A DNA stretch of 64,000 nt from Escherichia coli (lineage in GTDB: Bacteria > Pseudomonadota > Gammaproteobacteria > Enterobacterales > Enterobacteriaceae), in the NCBI RefSeq assembly GCF_017348835.2, contig NZ_CP071375.1; one strand, 5' to 3'. Shown here piece by piece: positions 4,501-30,231 of the stretch. A program made the position numbers and the translations under genes. Every line of letters starts with the position of its first letter. The first letter of the stretch is position 1. Below the pieces are notes generated by a model, which did no database searches, was not told the DNA's origin, and worked only from the letters and a program-made list of their open reading frames with translations.

Positions 4501-5907
<1,407 letters not shown>

Positions 5908-5975
5908 GCCGGAAAAAAGGCGCCAGCATCGCATTAGGCAATAGCGCCCAGGCTACGCCAAATGCGCTCCCCTCG

Positions 5976-8900
5976 TCACTGGAAACAAGTAACCAGACCA
6001 GGTTTATTGGCTAACGTGATACAACAATCCTCTGTGCCAGTGCTCTCGTCCATCCCACACCGTTGAGAGGACAAGTAAGGGAAACTTGGCGAAGCTGGCC
6101 ATCCCAGCGAATTAAACACAGTATACAATGTCTCTAACTCATTGTATGTCGGTGCATTTTCTATATTTCCACACTGCTTCGAGATATCCCATTTGCTGGC
6201 ATCAGTAATATGCGCAGAAGCCCAGTTTTCGTAGTTAATAATCGGTGAGGATACGGGATTGGCCCCGGACGGTAATTCAGTTGTCAGTATCGGTCGATGT
6301 AATGTTTTTCCATTCACCACTGCCGTGTCTGCCATATGCCCCCAGAAGTGAGCAGAAGATACATTTGGGCTGGTCAATACGGTGAAAATAGTGTCCATCA
6401 TTGCAGTCACTGTTGGGTATTTATCCAGCGTTACCGTCAGCGGCATTTTATAACCCGGCGTATTGTCCTGACGAACAGTAAAGTTTGCCGTGCCGTCTGC
6501 CCCCGTCACGCCACTGATCTCGTTCCCACTAACCGCCAATAGGGTAGCCGCCCCCGATGATGGCTGGATGGTAATATCATCCATAGCCGCCACATCGCCA
6601 TATAGCGTCGCCCCACTATTACGCGGAGAGGCATCACCACGTCGCAGAGTAAACGCCACATTTGGCACAGGTTTCCCGGCGCTGTCTTTCACCGTCACGG
6701 TGACTGGCATTGCCTCGCCCTTCTTCACTTTCGCCGCCTGAGCGGTGGAGTCAAATGCCGTTGACGTCAGGGTGACGGTAGAAACCGTTGAGTGAGGGTG
6801 CACCAGGCACGCCTGGAAGGCGCGGCTTTTAGATACAGTCACAAGTTGACCTGTGTTGAAGTCAAATGATTCACAAGAATTCGCGCCCGCAGGACAATCT
6901 GCATTTGTCCACCACACATAGCTATTCTGTTTCACCGGCCAGCCAATCTCATTGACGATAGAGCCATTCGGATAGCGGTTGTATAAAGATTGAAGCTCAT
7001 CCAATGATGGATATCGTGCGCTTTCACAAGGGATAAGCTCCGGCAAATATCGCTGGGTAATATATGGCGCAGGCCAGCTTTCATTATTTATATTCACTTT
7101 AGTGAGCGAATAACCGCCACCGCTGGTTGCCCCCATTTCGGCCCACAGTTTCATCCGCTCAAACTGCGTTCCGTCTGCTGAGCTTACCGTTTCTGGCATA
7201 TGTCCCCAGAAGTTGGCTTTTGGCGTATCCGGGCTTGTTACTACGGTATACATCAGGTCGAGATCTGACTTTACCCCTGTTTCACGTGCAAGCGTCGCCG
7301 TAAACGGTGTTACCAGTCCCCAGGTATTATCCTGCGTAGCGGTTAACGTGATGATGCCATTACCGTCCGTAACCCCGTTCCAACTGGCGTTATCATCTGC
7401 AAATTTGTAATTGGCTTGCGCAACCGGCGTCAGGAACTGTAGCAGCAGATCATCTGCTGTCGAGCTTGTGAAATCACTCGGCGTGCGCACTTGTGCTGTC
7501 GCACGCGACAACCTGACGCTTTCATAGGCGGCAGGTCTGCCCGCATCATCCGTGACCTTGATAGTTAACGGTATTGATACGCCCTTCTTCGCCCATGCAG
7601 TCGGACGGTTGTCGTTGATGCCTGTTTTGTCCGCATTCAGCAACGTAGACGTCAACTCAATCGTCGTTGCCTCAGTGTGCGGGTCAACCAGGCAGAGCAT
7701 TAAATTGCCCGCCGTCGATGTTGTACTTTCGTTGCGGATAGCACCGCTCATCAGATCAAGCACCTGGTTATACCATGTTGAACTTGAAACAGTTTGGTCG
7801 TACGCCCACCAGTAATTACCTGCGTTAAGAGGCAGCCCCAAATCAGTTTCCAGCGCACCATTTGGATGGTCGTTGTAAAGCCCCATTAGCTCACTACTGA
7901 AGGGTTGATAAGGCGAAGTGCAGCCTGAGATCGAACTGTTCGCTTTGTTGGTTGCATCTGGTCGCGCCCAGTCTTCATTGTTGATATTAAAGGACGCAGT
8001 CCCGGACAACTCGGCCTTCAACTGTGGTCGCCTGAACGCGACGCCCGCGCTGCTGGTAAAGGTTTCCGGCATATGGCCCCAATAGTTAGCCTTCGGCGTA
8101 TCCGGGCTGGTGATCACTGTGAAAATCGCACTTAAAGATTGTGAAGCAATCGAACCATCGTCCAGTTTCGCCAACAACGGAATACGAACGCCATATCCTT
8201 TATGGAACTGATATACCGTCAACGTCGCCGTTCCGTCAGGCCCGGTAACACCATAAAAATCATCGCCCTCATTAATGATTGGCGTTTGATGATTGGATGA
8301 ATCCGTGATGTAAATTAATTTCGACTGGTAATCTGAACTTACTACATTCTGACGGCTAAGCGTCGCACCATGTTCCAGCAAGAAGGGTACATTACCCAGC
8401 AGATTTCCCTGCGCGTCGCGCGTTGTGACCTTAATGGTGATGAAATCATGATCAACTTCATAATTGGTTTTTGCTTTAACCCCCTGATTACCATCATAAA
8501 CCTGCGCTTGTTCAGAGGTTAACTCAATTGTGGCGACCTTCGGGTTAGCCGTTGTCTGGCAGGTTAAATACCCCCCTTTTGACTCCAGTACACTGCTGGT
8601 GCCATTACTCAGTTGCACACCAAGGTAATTACGATTACTTACGCTGGCACCATCGGCGGTGCTGGTGTCATAGACTTTTAATACTGGCCAGCCGTCTACA
8701 GCATGACCGCCCCAGCTTGTCGATAACGTGGTTAATGCATCTTTGGTCGGGATATTATCTGCGCCACAACCGTTATTTTTCGCATTCTTACTTGCCTGCG
8801 CTTCAGTAAACAGCGCCCAAATTTCGTTATCCTCTTCCGGGCTTTTACGTCCATTGCCGGGAGAACCACTCAGTTCTGAAAACAGGATCGGTCGCTTAAA

Positions 8901-11900
8901 CGTCAATCCTCCCGCTGTGAGTGTTTCTGGCATATGCCCCCACATTTTTGCCTTGTTAGTGTCAGGGCTGGTGACAACGGTAAAAATAGTGTCTAACGAT
9001 GCGTTTTTTGTTGGATCGGAATAGAGCGCAGCGGTAATTGCCGTTTTCGTGCCGTGAGTGTCCGGGCGGGTGATGGTGAGAATTTTGCTACCGTCACTCC
9101 CCGTTAACCCAGCGTATGCACTGGCAGTATCGTTAAGCGACATTTCATCTGACATTCCGGCATCCACCACGACCGGTGAAACGATCCCGTCACCGCTTCC
9201 TGCAATATGCTTTTCATTGCTACGGGTGTAACCATCGCCACGCTTCAGGGTAAAGGGCATTCCCGGCATCGGGTTACCCGCCGTATCTTTCACCGTGACT
9301 TTTACCTGTAGCGTTTCACCCTTTTTCAGTTTCGCTGCATTAAGCGTGCTATTCCACTGTGCCTGATCGACCACTTCCAGCGTAATGGTGCTGGCGGGTG
9401 GGTTAGCGTCCTTCAGGCAGGAGATATAAATTTCCGAGGAACTTGTTTGCACGTTTCCGTTATTCAGCCAAACCGCTGCAAAGTGCGGGACTTTATCGGT
9501 AGGCGTGCTACTCCAGTAAGGCTGGCGCTGAGTCGGCCAACCATGCTCAGTTTGAATCGCGTTATTACTGTTGGCGCGATAGAGCGCATCAAGCTGTGAC
9601 TGGCGTGGCACTTTATTGGCCTCACAACCGCCCACCGCGCTATTTTCGATCTCGGACTGATCGACGCGTAACCAGGTTTCATTATTTTCATCAAAGGGAC
9701 GCCCGGAACCGCTTACCTCCACCGCCAGTTTGGGGCGATTAAATGTAATAGAATCCACAGTTATCGTGTCATCCATGTGCCCCCACATTCTCGCTCCCAT
9801 CACATCCGGGCTGGTGGGAACCGTAAAGATTACATAGTAGTTAATGGTATTCGGCAGAACAGAATTAGGAGGCGTGACAACAAGTCGCGTTCTTAAGCCA
9901 ACGCCTTGTGGCTGCTCAACAACAACGGTTGCCTGCCCCTGTGCGTCTGTAATACCGGAGTAAACCATTGAGGATTGTGAGGTACCGTACTGCGTCCCAT
10001 TCAGGGTTATTGCGCCGTTACTGGGATCGGTAAACCCGGTTGCGCTTTCTTCACGGTCAAGACTGATATCTTTGGTAATAGTAAAAGCCGTGAACGGCAC
10101 CCGCTCGCCATTCAGAGCATTAACTGTGCGCACCGTCATGGTGATTTGTTCACCGACTTTCGCCCGTGCCAGGCTGCCCGAGGTAGTATCACGATCGGTT
10201 GTCACTTCAACCTTCGCCACCATCTCATTACCAGAGCACGAGAGATAGTTTTGTTTAAAACCGCTATAACTGTCGACGTTCCCTGTTCCGAGGTTTACCG
10301 ATGAATGCGTTGTCTGCTCCGCGGCAGTTAAATAGTCCTTTACTGCGGTTGGCCAGCCATACTCAGTCCCGATGATATTGCCAGGGTAAGCCGAATACAG
10401 ACTTTCCAGTGAGATCTCACGCGGTATATGCCCCGTGCCGCATTCTGCCTGCATACTGGTATTTTGATCGAATAACGCCCAGTCTTCGTTATTTTCCCGT
10501 ACTGTGCCTATTTCATGCGTGGTTTCAGCCGCCAGCAGCGGTCGTTTATATAAACTGCCAGCATCAATAATGCCGTGCATGTGGCCCCACATCCGCGCAT
10601 ATTCGCTGTCCGGACTGGTCACCACCGTAAAGACCACATCTTTGGCATCTTCAGCAGTGAAATTACTGCGCATTTTCGCCGTAATATGCGTTTTAACGCC
10701 TGCGCCGTCAGGCTGCGTCAGCAGCAGAGTTGCCTGACCATTGACGTCGGTCATTCCCTCATAATTATGATCATCTACCTTTTGCAGGTTGGTGCCGCCG
10801 GAAATTTGTACCGGATGCGCTTCCCACGCCGGATCGGTTTGATTTTTGCGGTTAACGCCGTCATCGAGATGCAGCGAGAAGTAGTAATAAGCCAGCGGCT
10901 GATTGTTATTTTTTTTATCGGTAATGGTCAGGCGTATCGTAGTGCTGTCACCGACCTCTGCCTTCGCGGCATTTATACTTTCATCAAAGTTACTGGGCGT
11001 GAGCACCAACTCTGGCTCAACATCGGGTTCTGCTTTATCCACACAGCTCACGATATACTTTGTACTGTCTGGTTTTTGCGCTTCGCTGCGGTTAGACACA
11101 TCAGCCGCGTGGTGCTGCCCGGTACTTCCTGCCAGAGATGACCAGTAATAATCACCCTGCATCGGCCAACCGGCGGTCTCCTGAATAGAGTTAGGGATCA
11201 CCGTAGCCAGCGCGCCAAACTGGCGCATGCCAGGCAAAATATCGCAGTGGTTATCTGCGCCACTCCAGGTGAAGGTCGACCAGGTTTCACCGTGATCGTT
11301 CACACTGCCATCTTCGTTATCAACTTCCGCCGCCAATTTCGGACGACTAAAGGTGTAATTCATGGCCGTCAGGGTTTCCGCCATATGGCCCCACATATTG
11401 GCCTGCGGGGCATCCGGGCTGGTGAGTACAGTAAATATCACCGCCGTTTCACTGGTTTGCGAGATGCCAGAAAGGCTGACCACCAGCGGCGTTTTGACAC
11501 CTGGACCATTGGGCTGCGTCACCGTGACGGTAGCTGCGCCATCAGCATTAGTCGTGCCCCGATACTCCGTTGCTGTGGTGGTGAGTTCAGTGGTATCAAG
11601 ATTGACAGGTGAGGTGTTATTCACCACTCCCTGGCGGTTTTCAGCATCTTTTCGTTTGATAACAAAAGGGATATTGCTCGCAATATTACCTTCACAATCT
11701 TGGGTGGTTACGGTTAAGGTGATTGAACCATCGACAGTAGTCTTTGCCGCTTGTAACGTATCGTCATAGCCACTGGCGCTAATTGTCACCAGGTCGCCCT
11801 GGGCGGGAGCAATATTCAGCGTCACTTTATGTTCAGCCAACGGCACCGTCCCCTGATTAGGCACACCAGTTAACGTGTAGAGGTAGAGTAAAGGTAGCGC

Positions 11901-25486: not shown

Positions 25487-26341
25487 TTATGGTGTTCTCA
25501 TCCCATAGCGATGACGTTGGCAATAAAGACAATTTTGCGCATTTTGCTGAAAAGTAAGAAAGGATTTTTGACAGGTTTTACAGACTTTGCGATTAGCATG
25601 AAGATTCACAATTTTTGCCGGTAGAATCGTCAATTCAACGGTCATTGCCTGATGAAAACAAACAGCAATACAATTTTGGCATCCGTTACACAAGGCATCA
25701 TTTATTTGTAAATGGCCTTCGTTAAGCGAAAAGACCTGTTGCTCGCAGGCCCGCCAGCATGCACCGCAAAGCTGACACTTTTGAGGATCCATCATCGGGC
25801 GAGCATCACTAATCTGGGGCCAAAAATAATGTAACCGACGTAATCCTGGTTGTATTTGTGTCATCTGAACATCCGCACGCTGCACATGGAACAAACGACG
25901 CCGGGAAACATTCACCTCACTGGTATGTGGAGATACCACAGACCAGCCTTCCTCGCCATATTGCCGTAAGCGTTCGTTTAACAGCAATAATGCGCGCTCC
26001 CATGCCTTCGCCTGACTCAGATCAATCGCGATCGCTGTGATCCCCTGCTCTTTATGCCATAGCAAAAGTTCTTCCAGCGTCGGCGCAATAGTGGTGAAAG
26101 GTGCGACCAGGGTGTGATTGCGAAAATAACGTAAAGGGGAATTAACGCCACGAATAGCCTCTTGCGGGCAAATAAACTGGCAAACCGCACACTCAATACA
26201 TTGTTCCGCGTCGACCGCTACGCCCTCTTCTGTCAGCGTTAGCGCCTGTGCCGGGCAAGCCTCGACACAGGCATGACATGTTGCAAAACGAAAGCGTTGG
26301 CGCGCGCATTCCGCGCCAATCGTTATGTTATGACTTAACAT
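25487..26341 (-). CDS. Poly-ferredoxin-like protein ([4Fe-4S] CxxCxxCxxxC motifs plus C-terminal CxxC...CxxC), last gene of the Dms-like operon
   Basis: 284-aa ORF with CIECAVCQFICP, CQLCGACWRAC, CNGCQNCIAVC and CKTC...CLYC; stop/start overlap with the upstream gene at 26341. Confidence 0.6.
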   Translation of the reverse strand: MLSHNITIGAECARQRFRFATCHACVEACPAQALTLTEEGVAVDAEQCIECAVCQFICPQEAIRGVNSPLRYFRNHTLVAPFTTIAPTLEELLLWHKEQGITAIAIDLSQAKAWERALLLLNERLRQYGEEGWSVVSPHTSEVNVSRRRLFHVQRADVQMTQIQPGLRRLHYFWPQISDARPMMDPQKCQLCGACWRACEQQVFSLNEGHLQINDALCNGCQNCIAVCFHQAMTVELTILPAKIVNLHANRKVCKTCQKSFLTFQQNAQNCLYCQRHRYGMRTP

Positions 26342-27162
26342 TAGCCGATACTAAAAAAGACAAAACGCAGCATAACTTCACTCCCCACTAGCATTACGCT
26401 ACCGAATAACGCCGCCGGGATATTCTTTTTACAACCACCGACAGCAAAGAACATCATCCCAATGACGGAAATTCCCCAGCTTAGTGTCAGTATGGGTTTT
26501 AACTGTCCCAGCATCGCTAATGGCGCATGTGGCAATGTGGCTATCTGCATCGCATTTGCCGTTAAATCCCCTATCCACAACGGCTGAACCAACAAGCGCA
26601 ACAGAACCAGGAGAGCGATCACCAATACGCATCCATTACGCAGGGCATCAATCTGCGGCAAAATTCCGCTAATACGAAACACGGCTACCAGCGCTGAACC
26701 GAGAATTCCCACTGTACCTAAGAACATAATCAGCGTGTTGTAATGCTGCCAGGTGATAATCGACGTATGGATGTAAACTTGCGCCATGCAGAAAACATCA
26801 ACAATCCCGACCACTGCCGCTAGCATAAGCAGGAGTTGCCAGCCGCCTTTGCGTAACATGACCAGTAATGTGGATAAACCCAATAGCGCCAGATACAGCG
26901 TACCAAAGATAATTTCCCGACTCAGCCATGAACTGGAAAAGTGACTTAGCGCATGCATCGCATTAAGTGGATAACCCAGGTGTAAGGTAGAAATCAGTAA
27001 CCCTACGGCCCCTGCCAAAAAAGCCAACAGTAATGGCGGCCGCATAACCGGGCGGGCGCTGGAGGTGATTAAAATATGACGATGAAGAAACGCCAGCCAC
27101 AGCGTCATACCGACCGATGCCTGTAACAACAGCGTAAAAGCCATTAACGGTAATTCATGCAT
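26341..27162 (-). CDS. DmsC-family membrane anchor subunit of a DMSO-reductase-type enzyme
   Basis: 273-aa polytopic membrane protein; N-terminus MHELPLMAFTLLLQ resembles the DmsC/YnfH start; overlaps the B-subunit stop by 8 nt. Confidence 0.65.
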   Translation of the reverse strand: MHELPLMAFTLLLQASVGMTLWLAFLHRHILITSSARPVMRPPLLLAFLAGAVGLLISTLHLGYPLNAMHALSHFSSSWLSREIIFGTLYLALLGLSTLLVMLRKGGWQLLLMLAAVVGIVDVFCMAQVYIHTSIITWQHYNTLIMFLGTVGILGSALVAVFRISGILPQIDALRNGCVLVIALLVLLRLLVQPLWIGDLTANAMQIATLPHAPLAMLGQLKPILTLSWGISVIGMMFFAVGGCKKNIPAALFGSVMLVGSEVMLRFVFFSIG

Positions 27163-27784
27163 GATGTGACGCCTCCTTTTCCGCGCCCTGATGCGGTTTA
27201 ATCACCAGATTTGGCTGCGTAATCGACGAATCAGGTAAACCTTTCACATCACTGACATCGCCATACTTTTCACGCAACTCATCAATAGGGCCGAACTTAA
27301 TCGCCCCCAACGGGCACGTTGCCACGCAAATGGGTTGTTCTCCTTTAGCTTGCAGATCAATACAGAAATCGCATTTCGACATCTGCCCGGTCTGCTCATT
27401 CATTTGCGGTGCGCCGTAAGGACAGGACCATGCGCAGTAACCGCAACCGACGCACTTATCAGTATTCACGCGCACAATACCGTCTCCGGGACGCTTATGC
27501 ATCGCCATCGTCGGGCAATTTTTGGTACAGATCGGATCCGCGCAATGGTTACAGGAAACAGAAAGGGTATAAGCAAAGACATTATGACTCACACCGCCCT
27601 CTCCAGTGGCGATAAAGCCACCGCCGTTCACTTCATACACGCGGCGAAAACGTCGCCCAACCTCAAGGTTGTTTTTGTCTTTACAGGCCACCTGACACGC
27701 TTTACAGCCAGAACAACGCGAAGAGTCAATAAAGAACCCTAATTGTTTGTCGCTGACAGATGCAAATTCTTTAAATTGGCTCAT
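27155..27784 (-). CDS. DmsB-family four-cluster [4Fe-4S] ferredoxin subunit
   Basis: 209-aa ORF with four Cys-cluster motifs (CKACQVAC, CNHCADPIC, CVGCGYCAWSC, CDFC...C); overlaps the A-subunit stop by 4 nt. Confidence 0.8.
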   Translation of the reverse strand: MSQFKEFASVSDKQLGFFIDSSRCSGCKACQVACKDKNNLEVGRRFRRVYEVNGGGFIATGEGGVSHNVFAYTLSVSCNHCADPICTKNCPTMAMHKRPGDGIVRVNTDKCVGCGYCAWSCPYGAPQMNEQTGQMSKCDFCIDLQAKGEQPICVATCPLGAIKFGPIDELREKYGDVSDVKGLPDSSITQPNLVIKPHQGAEKEASHHA

Positions 27785-30162
27785 GCTTTCTCAACCTCCA
27801 CCAGCATTGTTTGATGTGAATTCCCTTTCGCCAGCGCCGTAATGCGGGTCGAACTCAGTACATTGGCGCAGCCTCCGCGATCAATACCTTGTGCATCCGG
27901 TTGCCACCATGCCCCCGCCTGCATAGCAACTACGCCAGGGATGATACGGGGGGTTATTTCCACCGGGATAATGCTCACACCACGATCGTTATAAATTTTT
28001 ACGCTATCTCCTTCGACAATCCCGCGCTGTTTTGCATCTTGCGGATTCAGCCAGAGTTTTTGCGTCTGAACTTCTTGCAGCCACGGGTTAGCATACTGGG
28101 TGGAATTAGCACGGTTTTTCCCTTTCCAGGTGATGAGCTGCAACGGGTATTTCGCCGTCAGTTTATCTTCTGGCCCTTCAAAGGCAGGGACATAGTGCGA
28201 AAGCGCGGGAATTTCTGGATCTTGCATATCAAAAAGACGCTTAGAGAAGATCTCAATTTTGCCGGAAGGCGTCGGGAAAGGATTATTCTGCGGATCGCGA
28301 ATATTTGCTTCGAAAGCGATGTGCGGCGCGCTTTTGAAAAGATGTCGACGTGTTTTTTGCAGGGTCGCGAAGTCCGGCAAATTTTCATCCGGCATCGCCA
28401 GACGAGTTTGCTCCCAGATATGCTCGATCCATTGCTTCTCATCACGTCCTTGACTGAACTCGGCTTCGACACCCAGTTTTTTCGCCACGTCACGCAACCA
28501 GTCATAATCGGTGCGACGTTCAAACTCCGGCTCAATCAGTTTTTCTGACAGAATGAGATAGCTCGCCGTTCCCCATGTTTCGCCGATATTCCAGCGTTCC
28601 ATAAAGCTGGTTTCCGGCAGCAACACATCGGCATATTTCGCGCTCGGAGTCATGAACAGATCGCTGAGTACGATGAATTCTATTTTAGATTCGTCTTCAA
28701 GGAGCTTCGCGGCCTGGTGGACGTCCGGGTTCTGGTTCGCCAGATAATTACCTGCCAGTGAGAACAGCAGGCGGATATTACTGTCGAGTTTATCGACACC
28801 TTTAAGCCCATCTTGTGGCGTAACTTTAGAAGCATCATCCGCCGCCTGCATCCAGTTCATAATCGAGATTTTCGCTTGTACCGGATTTTCTGGCATATCT
28901 GGTCCAACGCAGAATTTACGATTAGAACTACCGCCATAACCTGCCGCCCAGCCACCTTTGATGCCGACGTTACCGGTAATCGAGGCCAGTAAAGTTGAAC
29001 CTCGGGCGGTGCGTTCGCCGCAAATATGTCGCTGCGGTCCCCATCCCTGAATCAACGCTGCGGGTTTCGTGTTGGCGTAATCACGGGCCAGTTGACGAAT
29101 AGTTTGCGCTGGAACGTGGGTAATTTTTTCTGCCCATTCCGGCGTTTTGTGTATCCCATCTTTTGCGCCAAAAAGGTAGGCAACCAACGATTCGTTGGCT
29201 GGTACGCCTTCCGGCATGGAGTTTTCATCAAAACCGAGAGTATATGTGTCGATAAATGTCTTATCATGGAGATTCTCGCTGATAATGACGTACATCATCG
29301 CGTCCATCAACGCATTGTCCGTGGTCGGCAACAGCGGGATCCACTGATCGGCAAGTGAAGATACGGTGTCGGAATAGCGCGGATCCACCACGATAAAACG
29401 TGTACCGTTTTGCTTCATTTTTTGAAAATAGTAATTGGTGTGACCGAATATGGTTTCCGTTGGGTTATGCCCCCAGAGAATCACCAGTTTGGTATCCAGA
29501 AGAGTATCCATCGAGTTACCGCTCGCGGCCACGCCATACGTGTAAGGCGTGGCCGCCGCAGTATTACCCAGACTAACTGAGTGATAATATTCAAGATAAC
29601 CACCGGTTAAATTTAACAGCCGACGCGCCATCGCATCGCCAGAAAATGTTCCACCAGAAACAGCCGTCCCGACATGGACATAACGTGAAGCCGGGCCATA
29701 TTGTTGCGTGATCCTTTTCAGGTTATCGGCAATTAAGGTCGTCGCCTCATCCCATGAAATACGCTCAAATTTCCCCTCGCCCCGTTTACCGACCCGTTTC
29801 ATCGGATATTTCAGGCGGTCTGGATGATAAACAAATTTACGATAGCCGCGACCACGAACACAGGCGCGCATAATCGGCATTTGTGGATCCAATTCGTTAT
29901 CGGGAAGCGTGGTAATTTGCGTCACCACACCGTCGCACATATGCGCCCGAATATCGCACTTACCACCGCAGTCAAATGTGCTACAGGTGGGCACGACTTT
30001 ATCAGCTACTGGAGCTGTAACTTCTGGCGACGCATCTGGGGATTGCGCCTTTGCGGTAGAAGAAATAAAAGGCAAAGTGATAAGCGCGGAAGTCGCTTGT
30101 AAAAAACTACGTCGTGATACTTGCGGAAATGTAATGCGTTCCTTTTCGTCTGGCGTATCCAT
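27781..30162 (-). CDS. Tat-exported molybdopterin oxidoreductase catalytic subunit (DMSO reductase family, DmsA/YnfE-like)
   Basis: 793-aa ORF with twin-arginine signal (SRRSFLQATSAL...AKA) and an N-terminal Cys cluster (CSTFDCGGKCDIRAHMCDG) typical of the FS0-binding region. Confidence 0.85.
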   Translation of the reverse strand: MDTPDEKERITFPQVSRRSFLQATSALITLPFISSTAKAQSPDASPEVTAPVADKVVPTCSTFDCGGKCDIRAHMCDGVVTQITTLPDNELDPQMPIMRACVRGRGYRKFVYHPDRLKYPMKRVGKRGEGKFERISWDEATTLIADNLKRITQQYGPASRYVHVGTAVSGGTFSGDAMARRLLNLTGGYLEYYHSVSLGNTAAATPYTYGVAASGNSMDTLLDTKLVILWGHNPTETIFGHTNYYFQKMKQNGTRFIVVDPRYSDTVSSLADQWIPLLPTTDNALMDAMMYVIISENLHDKTFIDTYTLGFDENSMPEGVPANESLVAYLFGAKDGIHKTPEWAEKITHVPAQTIRQLARDYANTKPAALIQGWGPQRHICGERTARGSTLLASITGNVGIKGGWAAGYGGSSNRKFCVGPDMPENPVQAKISIMNWMQAADDASKVTPQDGLKGVDKLDSNIRLLFSLAGNYLANQNPDVHQAAKLLEDESKIEFIVLSDLFMTPSAKYADVLLPETSFMERWNIGETWGTASYLILSEKLIEPEFERRTDYDWLRDVAKKLGVEAEFSQGRDEKQWIEHIWEQTRLAMPDENLPDFATLQKTRRHLFKSAPHIAFEANIRDPQNNPFPTPSGKIEIFSKRLFDMQDPEIPALSHYVPAFEGPEDKLTAKYPLQLITWKGKNRANSTQYANPWLQEVQTQKLWLNPQDAKQRGIVEGDSVKIYNDRGVSIIPVEITPRIIPGVVAMQAGAWWQPDAQGIDRGGCANVLSSTRITALAKGNSHQTMLVEVEKA

Positions 30163-30217: not shown

Positions 30218-30231
30218 CTGATAACAATCAA
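30218..30231. promoter_or_regulatory. Candidate FNR/CRP-family box upstream of the Dms-like operon
   Basis: cTGATaacaATCAA matches the FNR consensus TTGAT-N4-ATCAA at 9 of 10 positions, centred about 62 bp upstream of the A-subunit start codon in an AT-rich spacer. Confidence 0.3.

What the first reader, a model, noticed from the sequence alone, without database searches (positions are those of the whole stretch)
25487..26341. Unusual 284-aa multi-cluster ferredoxin with zinc-ribbon-like tail attached to the Dms-like operon
Its stop overlaps the anchor-subunit start, so it is co-translated with the reductase, yet canonical DmsABC needs no fourth redox subunit. The mix of ferredoxin motifs and a CxxC-x14-CxxC tail could indicate a dedicated electron donor, a maturation factor or a redox-sensing regulator.
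Basis: inference. Interest (0 to 1): 0.45.

Follow-up and report, generated by a model that had tools for sequence, protein, structure and literature searches.

The report
Conserved iron-sulfur helper of DMSO-type reductases
The last gene of an accessory E. coli DMSO-reductase-like operon encodes a conserved, uncharacterised cytoplasmic iron-sulfur protein that most likely helps assemble the exported enzyme, rather than being a decayed remnant or a subunit of the working enzyme.

Summary
The ORF is real: window 26341→25487, minus strand, 284 aa, 20 Cys. Its ATG overlaps the stop of the DmsC-like gene (TAATG), so it is the fourth and last gene of dmsA'B'C'-fer. The tail spacing is CxxC-x13-CxxC, not x14.

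It is functional: dN/dS is 0.12-0.19, and all 20 Cys are invariant in 52 homologues down to 22% identity.

The architecture is a di-cluster ferredoxin domain, a ~115-aa α/β domain with no Pfam or PDB match, a flexible loop carrying a conserved twin-arginine-like motif (SRRRLF), a second di-cluster ferredoxin domain, and a Cys4 zinc-ribbon-like tail. The AlphaFold model has pLDDT 92.

In 15 neighbourhoods outside Escherichia, plus 8 further Enterobacterales genome loci, the gene lies beside a Mo-bisPGD catalytic subunit (Tat motif found wherever examined) and a four-cluster subunit. A TorD/DmsD-type chaperone gene is adjacent in 10 of the 15. The membrane or electron-input module varies (DmsC, NrfD, multihaem cytochrome, or none).

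This favours a cytoplasmic, NapF-like maturation factor (confidence ~0.55) over an electron donor or a regulator. It is not a NapF-family member. I rate it a new variant of a known kind, of moderate interest.

The parts
30218..30231 (-). FNR-type box TTGATTGTTATCAG (1 mismatch to TTGAT-N4-ATCAA), starting 69 nt upstream of the dmsA-like ATG; candidate anaerobic promoter element of the operon
   Evidence: Pattern search in the 163-nt pbpC/dmsA' intergenic region. This is a consensus match only; function was not tested.
27781..30162 (-). dmsA-like catalytic subunit (793 aa, Mo-bisPGD) with an N-terminal twin-arginine signal (VSRRSFLQ...AKAQ)
   Evidence: TIGR02166 dmsA_ynfE 1127 bits, above the 777.7 cutoff. 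It scores below the DmsA, YnfE and YnfF equivalog cutoffs. Pfam Molybdopterin and Molydop_binding. N-terminus shown.
27155..27784 (-). dmsB-like four-cluster iron-sulfur subunit (209 aa); overlaps dmsA' by 4 nt
   Evidence: TIGR02951 DMSO_dmsB 265.8 bits, above the 214.1 cutoff; PF13247 Fer4_11.
26341..27162 (-). dmsC-like membrane anchor (273 aa); overlaps dmsB' by 8 nt
   Evidence: PF04976 DmsC, 83 bits over residues 1-270.
25487..26341 (-). The finding: a 284-aa cytoplasmic multi-cluster Fe-S protein and fourth, last gene of the operon. Its ATG shares one base with the dmsC' stop (TAATG).
   Evidence: ORF list, sequence and junction. RefSeq WP_000948591, named '4Fe-4S dicluster domain-containing protein'. 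dN/dS 0.12-0.19. AF2 pLDDT 92.3, pTM 0.89.
26144..26320 (-). N-terminal 2x[4Fe-4S]-type ferredoxin domain (residues ~8-66). Motif 1 is atypical (C12-x9-C-x2-C-x3-CP); motif 2 is canonical.
   Evidence: Pfam Fer4_7 residues 22-62 and Fer4 residues 42-64. hhalign aligns it to NapF residues 93-158, including NapF's C-x7-C-x2-C-x3-C motif.
25802..26143 (-). Middle α/β domain (residues ~67-180) with the conserved E-L-L-x-W-H motif, N121 and L124; no described family
   Evidence: Conservation in A1 and A2. β-α-β-α-β secondary structure at pLDDT >90. No Pfam hit and no PDB sequence hit. No fold match beyond the ferredoxin modules.
25889..25906 (-). Internal twin-arginine-like motif S146-R-R-R-L-F151 in the only flexible loop of the model
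   Evidence: Alignment column counts: R 43/52 (+6 K), R 50/52, L/F/W 49/52, F/L 47/52. The motif is present in all tiers, with many perfect S/T-R-R-x-F-L-K examples. Loop pLDDT is 58. Tat-signal HMMs are the only recurring hit on isolated loops, but weakly (5/40) and not for the E. coli loop.
25622..25801 (-). Second 2x[4Fe-4S]-type ferredoxin domain (residues ~181-240), two CxxCxxCxxxC motifs
   Evidence: Pfam Fer4_21 residues 184-229 and Fer4_10 residues 183-228; Cys positions.
25487..25621 (-). C-terminal Cys4 tail (residues 241-284 plus stop): C254-x2-C257-x13-C271-x2-C274, then H277 and G280-M281-R282; zinc-ribbon or rubredoxin-like knuckles
   Evidence: All four Cys are invariant in A2. 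F, H and GM are invariant in tier 1. β-hairpins at pLDDT ~96. The metal identity was not testable.

Best explanation
The ORF encodes a soluble cytoplasmic ~32-kDa iron-sulfur protein. It has two 2x[4Fe-4S]-type ferredoxin domains (four cluster sites), a previously undescribed α/β middle domain, an exposed loop with a twin-arginine-like motif, and a Cys4 zinc-ribbon-like tail.

It is the E. coli member of a conserved family. The family is always encoded with a DmsA/DmsB-type molybdoenzyme pair whose catalytic subunit carries a twin-arginine export signal, and usually next to a TorD/DmsD-type chaperone gene.

The most likely role is that of an accessory factor rather than a subunit of the mature enzyme. 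It would act in the cytoplasm on the DmsA'B' precursor before Tat export. It might supply or insert Fe-S clusters, or keep the cofactors reduced, as proposed for NapF with the periplasmic nitrate reductase.

Shown here:
- the gene is intact, under purifying selection and overlaps its neighbours (consistent with translational coupling);
- its domain architecture;
- its family and the family's genomic associations.

Inferred:
- cytoplasmic location (no signal peptide or transmembrane segment);
- binding to the precursor;
- the chemistry performed.
For: 1. Real and functional. dN/dS is 0.12-0.19, close to dmsC' at 0.13. All 20 Cys are invariant in 52 sequences at 22-72% identity. The AF2 model is confident and compact (pLDDT 92.3, pTM 0.89).
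2. Location. There is no N-terminal signal, and the maximum 19-residue hydropathy is 1.42. DmsA' carries SRRSFLQ...AKAQ.
3. Association. In 15 neighbourhoods outside Escherichia the gene is adjacent to a Mo-bisPGD A subunit plus a Fer4_11 B subunit. Eight further Enterobacterales genome loci show the same A-B-C-fer order. A PF02613 chaperone gene is adjacent in 10 of the 15. The third component is DmsC, NrfD, a multihaem cytochrome c, or absent (Paraferrimonas A-B-fer-TorD). One operon ends with tatA, and one places fer with a radical-SAM gene and the chaperone ahead of the structural genes.
4. All 20 cognate A subunits examined carry a twin-arginine motif.
5. NapF-like features. It has four Cys4 motifs, one with a distant first Cys as in NapF motif 3. 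hhalign gives 96.5% probability to NapF residues 93-158. It has an RR motif, as NapF has at its N-terminus.
6. Literature precedent. NapF is cytoplasmic, binds NapA and is needed for NapA Fe-S assembly in R. sphaeroides (review PMC10609526). In the H. influenzae dmsABCDE operon, DmsE is described as a NapF homologue and called a chaperone (PMC8340005). Shewanella DmsH follows the TorD-like DmsG, is predicted cytoplasmic, and its deletion strongly impairs DMSO growth and iodate reduction (PMC11302344).
7. It evolves fast, like an accessory protein. It is 33-44% identical across Enterobacterales, against 77-88% for DmsA'/DmsB'.
Against: - There is no experimental datum for this protein or any proven homologue.
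- It fails the NapF family model (best score to any NCBIfam model is 50 bits; the napF cutoff is 102). The similarity to NapF is confined to one ferredoxin module.
- NapF's own mechanism is unsettled, and its loss has only marginal effects in E. coli.
- In tier 1 the gene overlaps dmsC by one base, and its divergence tracks that of DmsC. That would also fit a DmsC-docked subunit.
- Four clusters in a compact protein are what an electron wire looks like.
- The E. coli island has no chaperone gene of its own.
Confidence: 0.55

Rival explanations
1. It is a cytoplasmic electron-transfer subunit. The four-cluster protein would dock on the cytoplasmic face of DmsC and pass electrons between a cytoplasmic donor or acceptor and the quinone site.
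For: Four [4Fe-4S]-type motifs in a compact fold. The closest sequence and fold matches are electron-wire polyferredoxins: MvhB, FwdF and HycF. There is a one-base overlap with dmsC in tier 1. DmsC and the ferredoxin diverge at similar rates.
Against: The catalytic A/B pair is exported (Tat motif in all 20 cognate A subunits). From established knowledge, E. coli-type DmsC carries no haem or other cofactor that could relay electrons from a cytoplasmic Fe-S protein. The family also occurs with NrfD anchors, with periplasmic multihaem cytochromes, and with no anchor gene. It clusters with the chaperone gene instead.
Confidence: 0.15
2. It is a Tat-targeting or proofreading adaptor. The exposed internal twin-arginine loop would bind whatever reads Tat motifs (the TorD/DmsD-type chaperone or TatBC). 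The Fe-S clusters would report cofactor or redox status, gating export of DmsA'B'.
For: The S/T-R-R-x-F/L-F/L motif is conserved in all tiers (R in 50/52 sequences) and lies in the only flexible loop. Tat-signal HMMs are the only recurring hit on isolated loops. The gene is frequently next to PF02613 chaperone genes and once next to tatA. NapF also has a non-exporting RR motif.
Against: The HMM support is weak (5/40) and absent for the E. coli loop. No hydrophobic h-region follows the motif. The loop does not resemble the cognate DmsA Tat motif more than non-cognate ones (3.36 vs 3.37 identities of 13). The arginines could instead serve a structural or cofactor-binding role.
Confidence: 0.15
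3. It is a redox- or oxygen-sensing transcriptional or post-transcriptional regulator of the operon, using Fe-S clusters as the sensor and the zinc-ribbon tail for nucleic-acid binding.
For: It has oxygen-labile cluster motifs and a C-terminal CxxC...CxxC knuckle, a fold that binds nucleic acids in some proteins.
Against: No helix-turn-helix or other DNA-binding family was detected. The gene is strictly linked to the structural and chaperone genes in very different regulatory contexts, including loci with their own AraC, two-component or sigma-54 regulators. An FNR-type box already accounts for a possible anaerobic control.
Confidence: 0.04
4. It is a non-functional fused remnant or a spurious ORF.
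For: The Shine-Dalgarno sequence is weak or absent, and GC3 (0.44) is lower than in neighbouring genes.
Against: The reading frame is intact in 378 E. coli genomes. dN/dS is 0.12-0.19. The full-length family is conserved from Enterobacterales to Bacillaceae and Chromatiales with every Cys invariant. The model is high-confidence.
Confidence: 0.01

Closest known systems
NapF (ferredoxin-type accessory protein of the periplasmic nitrate reductase, E. coli b2208, 164 aa)
   Same: It has four Cys4 [4Fe-4S]-type motifs, one with a distant first Cys (NapF C102-x7-C-x2-C-x3-C against C12-x9-C-x2-C-x3-C here). It has an RR motif that does not direct export. It is encoded in the operon of a Tat-exported Mo-bisPGD enzyme. 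It is expected to be cytoplasmic. hhalign gives 96.5% probability over one di-cluster module.
   Different: This protein is 284 aa against 164 aa. Its two di-cluster domains are split by a ~115-aa α/β domain that NapF lacks. Its RR motif is internal, not N-terminal. It has an extra Cys4 tail. It scores far below the NapF model cutoff. It is associated with DmsAB-type enzymes and TorD-type chaperones rather than NapA and NapD.
Salmonella Typhimurium STM2527 (fourth gene of STM2530-2527)
   Same: It has the same four-gene operon at the same pbpC/ndk site. S. enterica counterparts are ~39-40% identical with the same architecture. The fourth gene is noted in bioRxiv 10.1101/2022.11.29.517730.
   Different: It is also uncharacterised. 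STM2530 alone gave no DMSO-dependent growth. The LT2 sequence itself was not examined here; subspecies arizonae and diarizonae were.
Shewanella oneidensis DmsH (dmsEFABGH) and its paralogue SO_4361
   Same: It occupies the same operon slot, after DmsA, DmsB and the TorD-like DmsG. It is predicted cytoplasmic. Deletion strongly reduces DMSO growth and iodate reduction, and the defect is complementable (PMC11302344). Tier-3 loci have an analogous layout: cytochrome, A, B, chaperone, ferredoxin.
   Different: Sequence homology was not tested because the DmsH sequence was not obtainable. No Shewanella entry surfaced in the searches.
Haemophilus influenzae DmsE (dmsABCDE)
   Same: It is a co-transcribed extra gene of a DmsABC operon, next to dmsD. 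Its authors describe it as a NapF homologue and chaperone (PMC8340005).
   Different: That role is inferred, not tested. No Pasteurellaceae member appeared in this family, so it is probably a short true NapF-type protein.
Polyferredoxins MvhB and FwdF, and HycF
   Same: These are the best sequence and fold matches, through repeated 2x[4Fe-4S] modules.
FdhE (rubredoxin-type accessory protein of Tat-exported formate dehydrogenases)
   Same: It is conceptually similar: a cytoplasmic CxxC-rich accessory protein for a Tat-exported molybdoenzyme.
   Different: There is no detectable homology (hhalign probability 1.6%).

Membership tests
Bacterial 2x[4Fe-4S] ferredoxin domain (Pfam Fer4 / Fer4_7 / Fer4_21) | Score above the Pfam gathering threshold; paired CxxCxxCxxxC(P) motifs | tested here: met
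   Fer4 46.5 bits (cutoff 21.1), Fer4_7 46.3 (27) and Fer4_21 37.1 (35), with stretches in both halves. Three canonical motifs and one variant motif.
NapF (NCBIfam TIGR00402) | Whole-protein score at or above the curated cutoff (102.2 bits) | tested here: not met
   The best score of the query to any NCBIfam model is 50.2 bits, and napF is not among the top 25. Relatives P0111 and P0040 score 52.4 and 38.5 bits to napF.
NapF (NCBIfam TIGR00402) | Four Cys4 cluster motifs in a ~160-aa protein with no other domains, and an N-terminal RR motif | tested here: not met
   Four motifs are present. However, the protein is 284 aa with an inserted ~115-aa domain and a Cys4 tail, and the RR motif is at residues 146-151 rather than the N-terminus.
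NapF (functional class) | Cytoplasmic location, physical interaction with the catalytic subunit precursor, and a requirement for its Fe-S assembly or activity | not testable with these tools
   The sequence shows only the absence of a signal peptide or transmembrane segment. The rest needs fractionation, two-hybrid assays and mutant enzymology.
DmsB / four-cluster subunit (TIGR02951, PF13247 Fer4_11) | Match to Fer4_11 or the DMSO_dmsB model | tested here: not met
   Neither family is listed for the query: Fer4_11 is absent from its 10 Pfam hits and DMSO_dmsB from the top 25 NCBIfam hits. The neighbouring dmsB' matches both strongly.
TorD/DmsD/NarJ redox-enzyme maturation chaperones (PF02613) | Match to the Nitrate_red_del family | tested here: not met
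   There is no hit. In relatives, PF02613 proteins are separate neighbouring genes.
FdhE | Homology to E. coli FdhE and its paired rubredoxin-type CxxC sites | tested here: not met
   hhalign probability is 1.6%.
Tat (twin-arginine) signal peptide | S/T-R-R-x-F-L-K consensus | tested here: met
   The query has SRRRLF. The family consensus is SRRxLF or SRRxFF, with perfect S/T-R-R-x-F-L-K in many members.
Tat (twin-arginine) signal peptide | N-terminal position, followed by a hydrophobic h-region and a cleavage site; recognised by TAT_signal models | tested here: not met
   The motif is internal (residue 146 of 284) and is followed by polar sequence. Pfam TAT_signal hits only 5 of 40 isolated loops (best E 0.011) and not the query.
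Zinc-ribbon / rubredoxin-like Cys4 knuckle | Two CxxC pairs separated by ~10-20 residues on β-hairpins, binding one metal ion | tested here: inconclusive
   C254xxC-x13-C271xxC is invariant across the family, and β-hairpins are predicted at high confidence.
The family itself (DmsAB-associated 'split' ferredoxin, unnamed) | Di-cluster Fd + middle domain + RR loop + di-cluster Fd + Cys4 tail, encoded beside a Tat-dependent Mo-bisPGD A/B pair | tested here: met
   A1, A2 and A3 alignments, the exhaustive search (76 representatives at E≤1e-30) and 15 neighbourhoods (and the context calls).

The most novel reading that the evidence does not exclude
The family is an unrecognised class of Tat-substrate assembly factor. 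Its conserved internal twin-arginine loop would act as a short linear motif that docks onto the TorD/DmsD-type chaperone or the TatBC receptor. This would physically couple Fe-S and cofactor loading of the DmsA'B' precursor to release for export, a cofactor-status checkpoint built from a signal-peptide mimic.
Probability: 0.18. Interest if true: 0.7.

Novelty: new variant of a known kind. Interest (0 to 1): 0.45.

Why it matters
Many Enterobacterales carry this third DMSO-reductase-type enzyme, whose substrate is unknown. They include Salmonella enterica and about 7% of complete E. coli genomes, among them O55:H7.

In Salmonella, supplying the catalytic subunit alone (STM2530) did not restore DMSO-dependent growth. 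A dedicated maturation factor encoded in the same operon may be one reason such enzymes cannot be reconstituted from the catalytic subunit alone.

More generally, the family marks DmsAB-type reductases in Proteobacteria and Firmicutes and comes with clear handles for experiment: the RR loop, the Cys4 tail and an undescribed middle domain. It offers a second, structurally distinct system besides NapF for asking how Fe-S proteins take part in the pre-export assembly of Tat-dependent molybdoenzymes, which the field's own review lists as unresolved. It would also be a practical co-expression partner for heterologous production of these reductases.

Tried and rejected
1. FdhE-like tail: hhalign probability 1.6%. 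Rejected.
3. Middle domain alone: no Pfam or PDB sequence hit.
4. Locus-specific mimicry of the partner's Tat motif by the RR loop: no signal (3.36 vs 3.37 identities of 13).
5. Tat-signal HMMs on isolated loops: only weak, minority hits.
6. GC-rich hairpin 22 nt into the ORF, flagged by the terminator scan: not significant (z = -1.26).
7. No intrinsic terminator was found between the ORF and ndk.
8. Testing whether Shewanella DmsH or Haemophilus DmsE belong to the family: no sequence was reachable. Named-homologue searches and cluster look-ups returned only generic names and no Shewanella or Pasteurellaceae entries. Gralnick 2006 is not held.
9. Literature search by guessed O157 locus tags returned only irrelevant hits.
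10. The retron paper mentions STM2530 only as a mutant allele.
A1 was used instead.
Full report
**1. What is in the sequence**

The window is E. coli chromosome: the ORF is 100% identical to that of strains PE164 and F2_81, and the flanking gene order is E. coli. On the minus strand it carries bamB, yfgM, hisS, ispG, rodZ, rlmN and ndk, then a four-gene island, then pbpC.

The island has four overlapping genes.
- A DmsA/YnfE-type Mo-bisPGD catalytic subunit at 30162→27781. It scores 1127 bits to TIGR02166, but below the DmsA, YnfE and YnfF equivalog cutoffs.
- A DmsB-type four-cluster subunit at 27784→27155.
- A DmsC anchor at 27162→26341.
- The ORF in question at 26341→25487.

The overlaps are 4, 8 and 1 nt. 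The ORF's ATG shares one base with the dmsC' stop (GGCTAATG). This is the last gene, followed by 140 nt and the ndk promoter region.

The protein has 284 aa and 20 Cys, arranged as follows:
- four ferredoxin-type motifs, the first atypical (C12-x9-C-x2-C-x3-CP);

**2. It is a real, constrained gene**

The island is present in 380 of 5,426 complete E. coli genomes, and the ORF is full-length in 378. RefSeq calls it only "4Fe-4S dicluster domain-containing protein".

Against Escherichia sp. alleles, dN/dS is 0.12-0.19. That compares with 0.13 for dmsC' and about 0.055 for dmsA' and dmsB'. The "fused pseudogene remnant" refutation fails.

**3. The family**

A word-indexed search found about 285-aa homologues in Citrobacter and unnamed enterobacteria. 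An exhaustive profile search of 1.84 billion representatives gave 76 proteins at E≤1e-30. They fall into tiers.
- **Tier 1:** Enterobacterales, about 285 aa, with a tail ending H-x2-G-M-R. It includes Salmonella enterica at ~39-40% identity.
- **Tier 2:** Vibrio, Photobacterium, Paraferrimonas, Bacillaceae and Brevibacillus, about 300 aa.
- **Tier 3:** Chromatiales, Kiloniellales, Competibacter and Sedimenticola, 330-365 aa, with a tail ending LFQVLD.

All 20 Cys are invariant in a 52-sequence alignment at 22-72% identity. Tier 3 adds four more invariant Cys in the middle domain. Every source name is generic.

**4. Structure**

With the 52-sequence alignment, AlphaFold2 gives pLDDT 92.3 and pTM 0.89. 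The model has five parts:
- a di-cluster ferredoxin domain;
- a β-α-β-α-β middle domain (residues ~67-180) with the conserved ELLxWH, N121 and L124;
- one flexible loop (pLDDT 58);
- a second di-cluster domain;
- a β-hairpin Cys4 tail.

**5. An unexpected motif**

The flexible loop carries S146-R-R-R-L-F. In the alignment the two arginine columns are R in 43/52 (plus 6 K) and 50/52 sequences. They are followed by L/F/W in 49/52 and F/L in 47/52.

The motif recurs in all tiers. Many examples are a perfect Tat consensus, such as SLSRRNFLKQA and TMTRRNFLRKA.

It is internal and is not followed by a hydrophobic stretch, so it is not a signal peptide. On isolated loops, Tat-signal HMMs are the only recurring hit, but weakly (5/40) and not for the E. 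coli loop. The loop does not resemble its own partner's Tat motif more than other loci's.

E. coli NapF has a comparable non-exporting SRRGIL at its N-terminus. NapF also has a C-x7-C-x2-C-x3-C motif like this protein's motif 1. hhalign aligns the N-terminal domain to NapF residues 93-158 at 96.5% probability.

**6. Genomic association**

Fifteen neighbourhoods outside Escherichia were read. Eight further Enterobacterales genome loci show the same A-B-C-fer order, as do the three Escherichia loci that match the window itself.

In every case the gene is adjacent to a Mo-bisPGD A subunit plus a Fer4_11 B subunit. All 20 A subunits examined have an N-terminal twin-arginine motif. A TorD/DmsD-family (PF02613) gene is adjacent in 10 of the 15 neighbourhoods.

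The third component varies:
- DmsC in tier 1, Vibrio, Rahnella and a Citrobacter plasmid;
- NrfD in Mesobacillus and L008, where tatA follows;
- a periplasmic multihaem cytochrome in tier 3;
- nothing in Paraferrimonas (A-B-fer-TorD).

In L021 the gene lies with a radical-SAM gene and the chaperone, upstream of the structural genes.

Within Enterobacterales, DmsA' and DmsB' are 77-88% identical to the E. coli proteins. DmsC' is only 41-54% identical and the ferredoxin 33-44%.

**7. Mechanism**

The protein has no signal peptide or membrane segment, and its constant partners are exported. An Fe-S protein that stays in the cytoplasm cannot wire electrons to a periplasmic enzyme through a cofactor-less DmsC. 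That DmsC lacks cofactors is established knowledge for E. coli DmsC. The family also persists where the anchor is different or absent.

The most economical reading is an accessory factor acting on the precursor before export. Published precedents are of three kinds.
- NapF is cytoplasmic, binds NapA, and is required for NapA Fe-S assembly in R. sphaeroides (review PMC10609526).
- H. influenzae DmsE is described as a NapF homologue and chaperone (PMC8340005).
- Shewanella DmsH follows the TorD-like DmsG and is predicted cytoplasmic. ΔdmsH gives OD 0.25 against 1.26 for wild type on DMSO and 35.6% iodate reduction, and the defect is complementable (PMC11302344).

I could not obtain the DmsH or DmsE sequences, so these are functional analogies rather than proven homologies. 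I put 0.55 on the maturation-factor reading. The chemistry (cluster donation or reductive poise) and the role of the RR loop remain inferred.

**8. Rivals**
- A DmsC-docked electron-transfer subunit (0.15). It is supported by the polyferredoxin look and the overlap with dmsC, and contradicted by topology and anchor variability.
- A Tat-proofreading adaptor using the RR loop (0.15). It is attractive but only weakly supported.
- A redox regulator (0.04). No DNA-binding domain was found.
- A remnant (0.01). This is refuted.

**9. Comparison and novelty**

The protein works most like NapF but fails the NapF family test. Its best score to any NCBIfam model is 50 bits against a napF cutoff of 102. 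Its size and domain content also differ, and its RR motif is internal.

It is not DmsB-type, not a TorD-type chaperone, and not FdhE-like.

The family has a distinctive architecture and is uncharacterised, while the concept already has precedent. I therefore class it as a new variant of a known kind and give it moderate interest (0.45). The internal Tat-like motif is the feature most worth an experiment.

Noticed in passing
window 30218-30231 (minus strand): An FNR-type box, TTGATTGTTATCAG (1 mismatch to TTGAT-N4-ATCAA), starts 69 nt upstream of the dmsA-like start codon, in a very AT-rich 163-nt intergenic region. It suggests anaerobic control of the island.
   Followed up: partly
window 25487-30162; loci L011-L017: The four-gene island is accessory in E. 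coli (380 of 5,426 complete genomes). It sits at the identical pbpC/ndk site in Salmonella enterica subsp. arizonae and diarizonae, Enterobacter, Lelliottia, Huaxiibacter and Pseudocitrobacter. That looks like an ancestral locus lost from most E. coli rather than a recent insertion.
   Followed up: partly
window 25487-30162 against L002, L004, L011-L018: Divergence steps sharply along the operon. DmsA' is 77-84% and DmsB' 82-88% identical, but DmsC' is 41-54% and the ferredoxin 33-44%, even between Escherichia and Salmonella. These are unusually fast-evolving proteins for these genera. GC3 of the ferredoxin gene (0.44) is also lower than in its neighbours.
   Followed up: partly
alignment A3 (tier-3 relatives, e.g. 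L007 8001-9077, L022 5366-6409): Tier-3 family members (330-365 aa) carry four additional invariant cysteines inside the middle domain: C96, C110, C137 and C140 of P0111. This hints at a further metal or cluster site that the E. coli protein lacks.
   Followed up: no
L021 5750-12728: In this metagenomic locus the ferredoxin gene is followed by a 446-aa radical-SAM/Fer4_12 gene and the TorD-like gene. All three lie upstream of the Mo subunit, FeS subunit and DmsC. This is a block of accessory genes that may point to an extra maturation step.
   Followed up: no
L027 (Citrobacter freundii plasmid NZ_CP099223.1) and L028 (Rahnella aquatilis HX2 plasmid PRA1): A TorD-Mo-FeS-DmsC-ferredoxin module lies between IS26 and ISKpn26 on a 53-kb IncFIB plasmid. 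A-B-C-ferredoxin operons sit on Rahnella megaplasmids, where the gene is annotated 'polyferredoxin'. The module is therefore sometimes plasmid-borne.
   Followed up: partly
L011 ~4900-7540 (Pseudocitrobacter faecalis DSM 27453): The dmsA-like gene appears frameshifted: the longest open stretches are 372 aa in one frame and 469 aa in another. The downstream B, C and ferredoxin genes look intact. This may be a pseudogene or an assembly error.
   Followed up: no
L020 (Mesobacillus jeotgali CP025025.1) 4660-6852 and 8001-8915: Here the ferredoxin gene is divergently transcribed from the TorD-Mo-FeS-NrfD operon. Its internal loop PKLSRRGFFTKLS is nearly identical to the Tat motif of its own catalytic subunit, TKLSRRGFIKASA (9 of 13), although no such trend holds across loci.
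   Followed up: partly
window 27781-30162: The catalytic subunit meets the DmsA/YnfE subfamily model but falls far below the specific DmsA, YnfE and YnfF cutoffs. Its Salmonella counterpart STM2530 did not support DMSO-dependent growth. The physiological substrate of this reductase is unknown.
   Followed up: no
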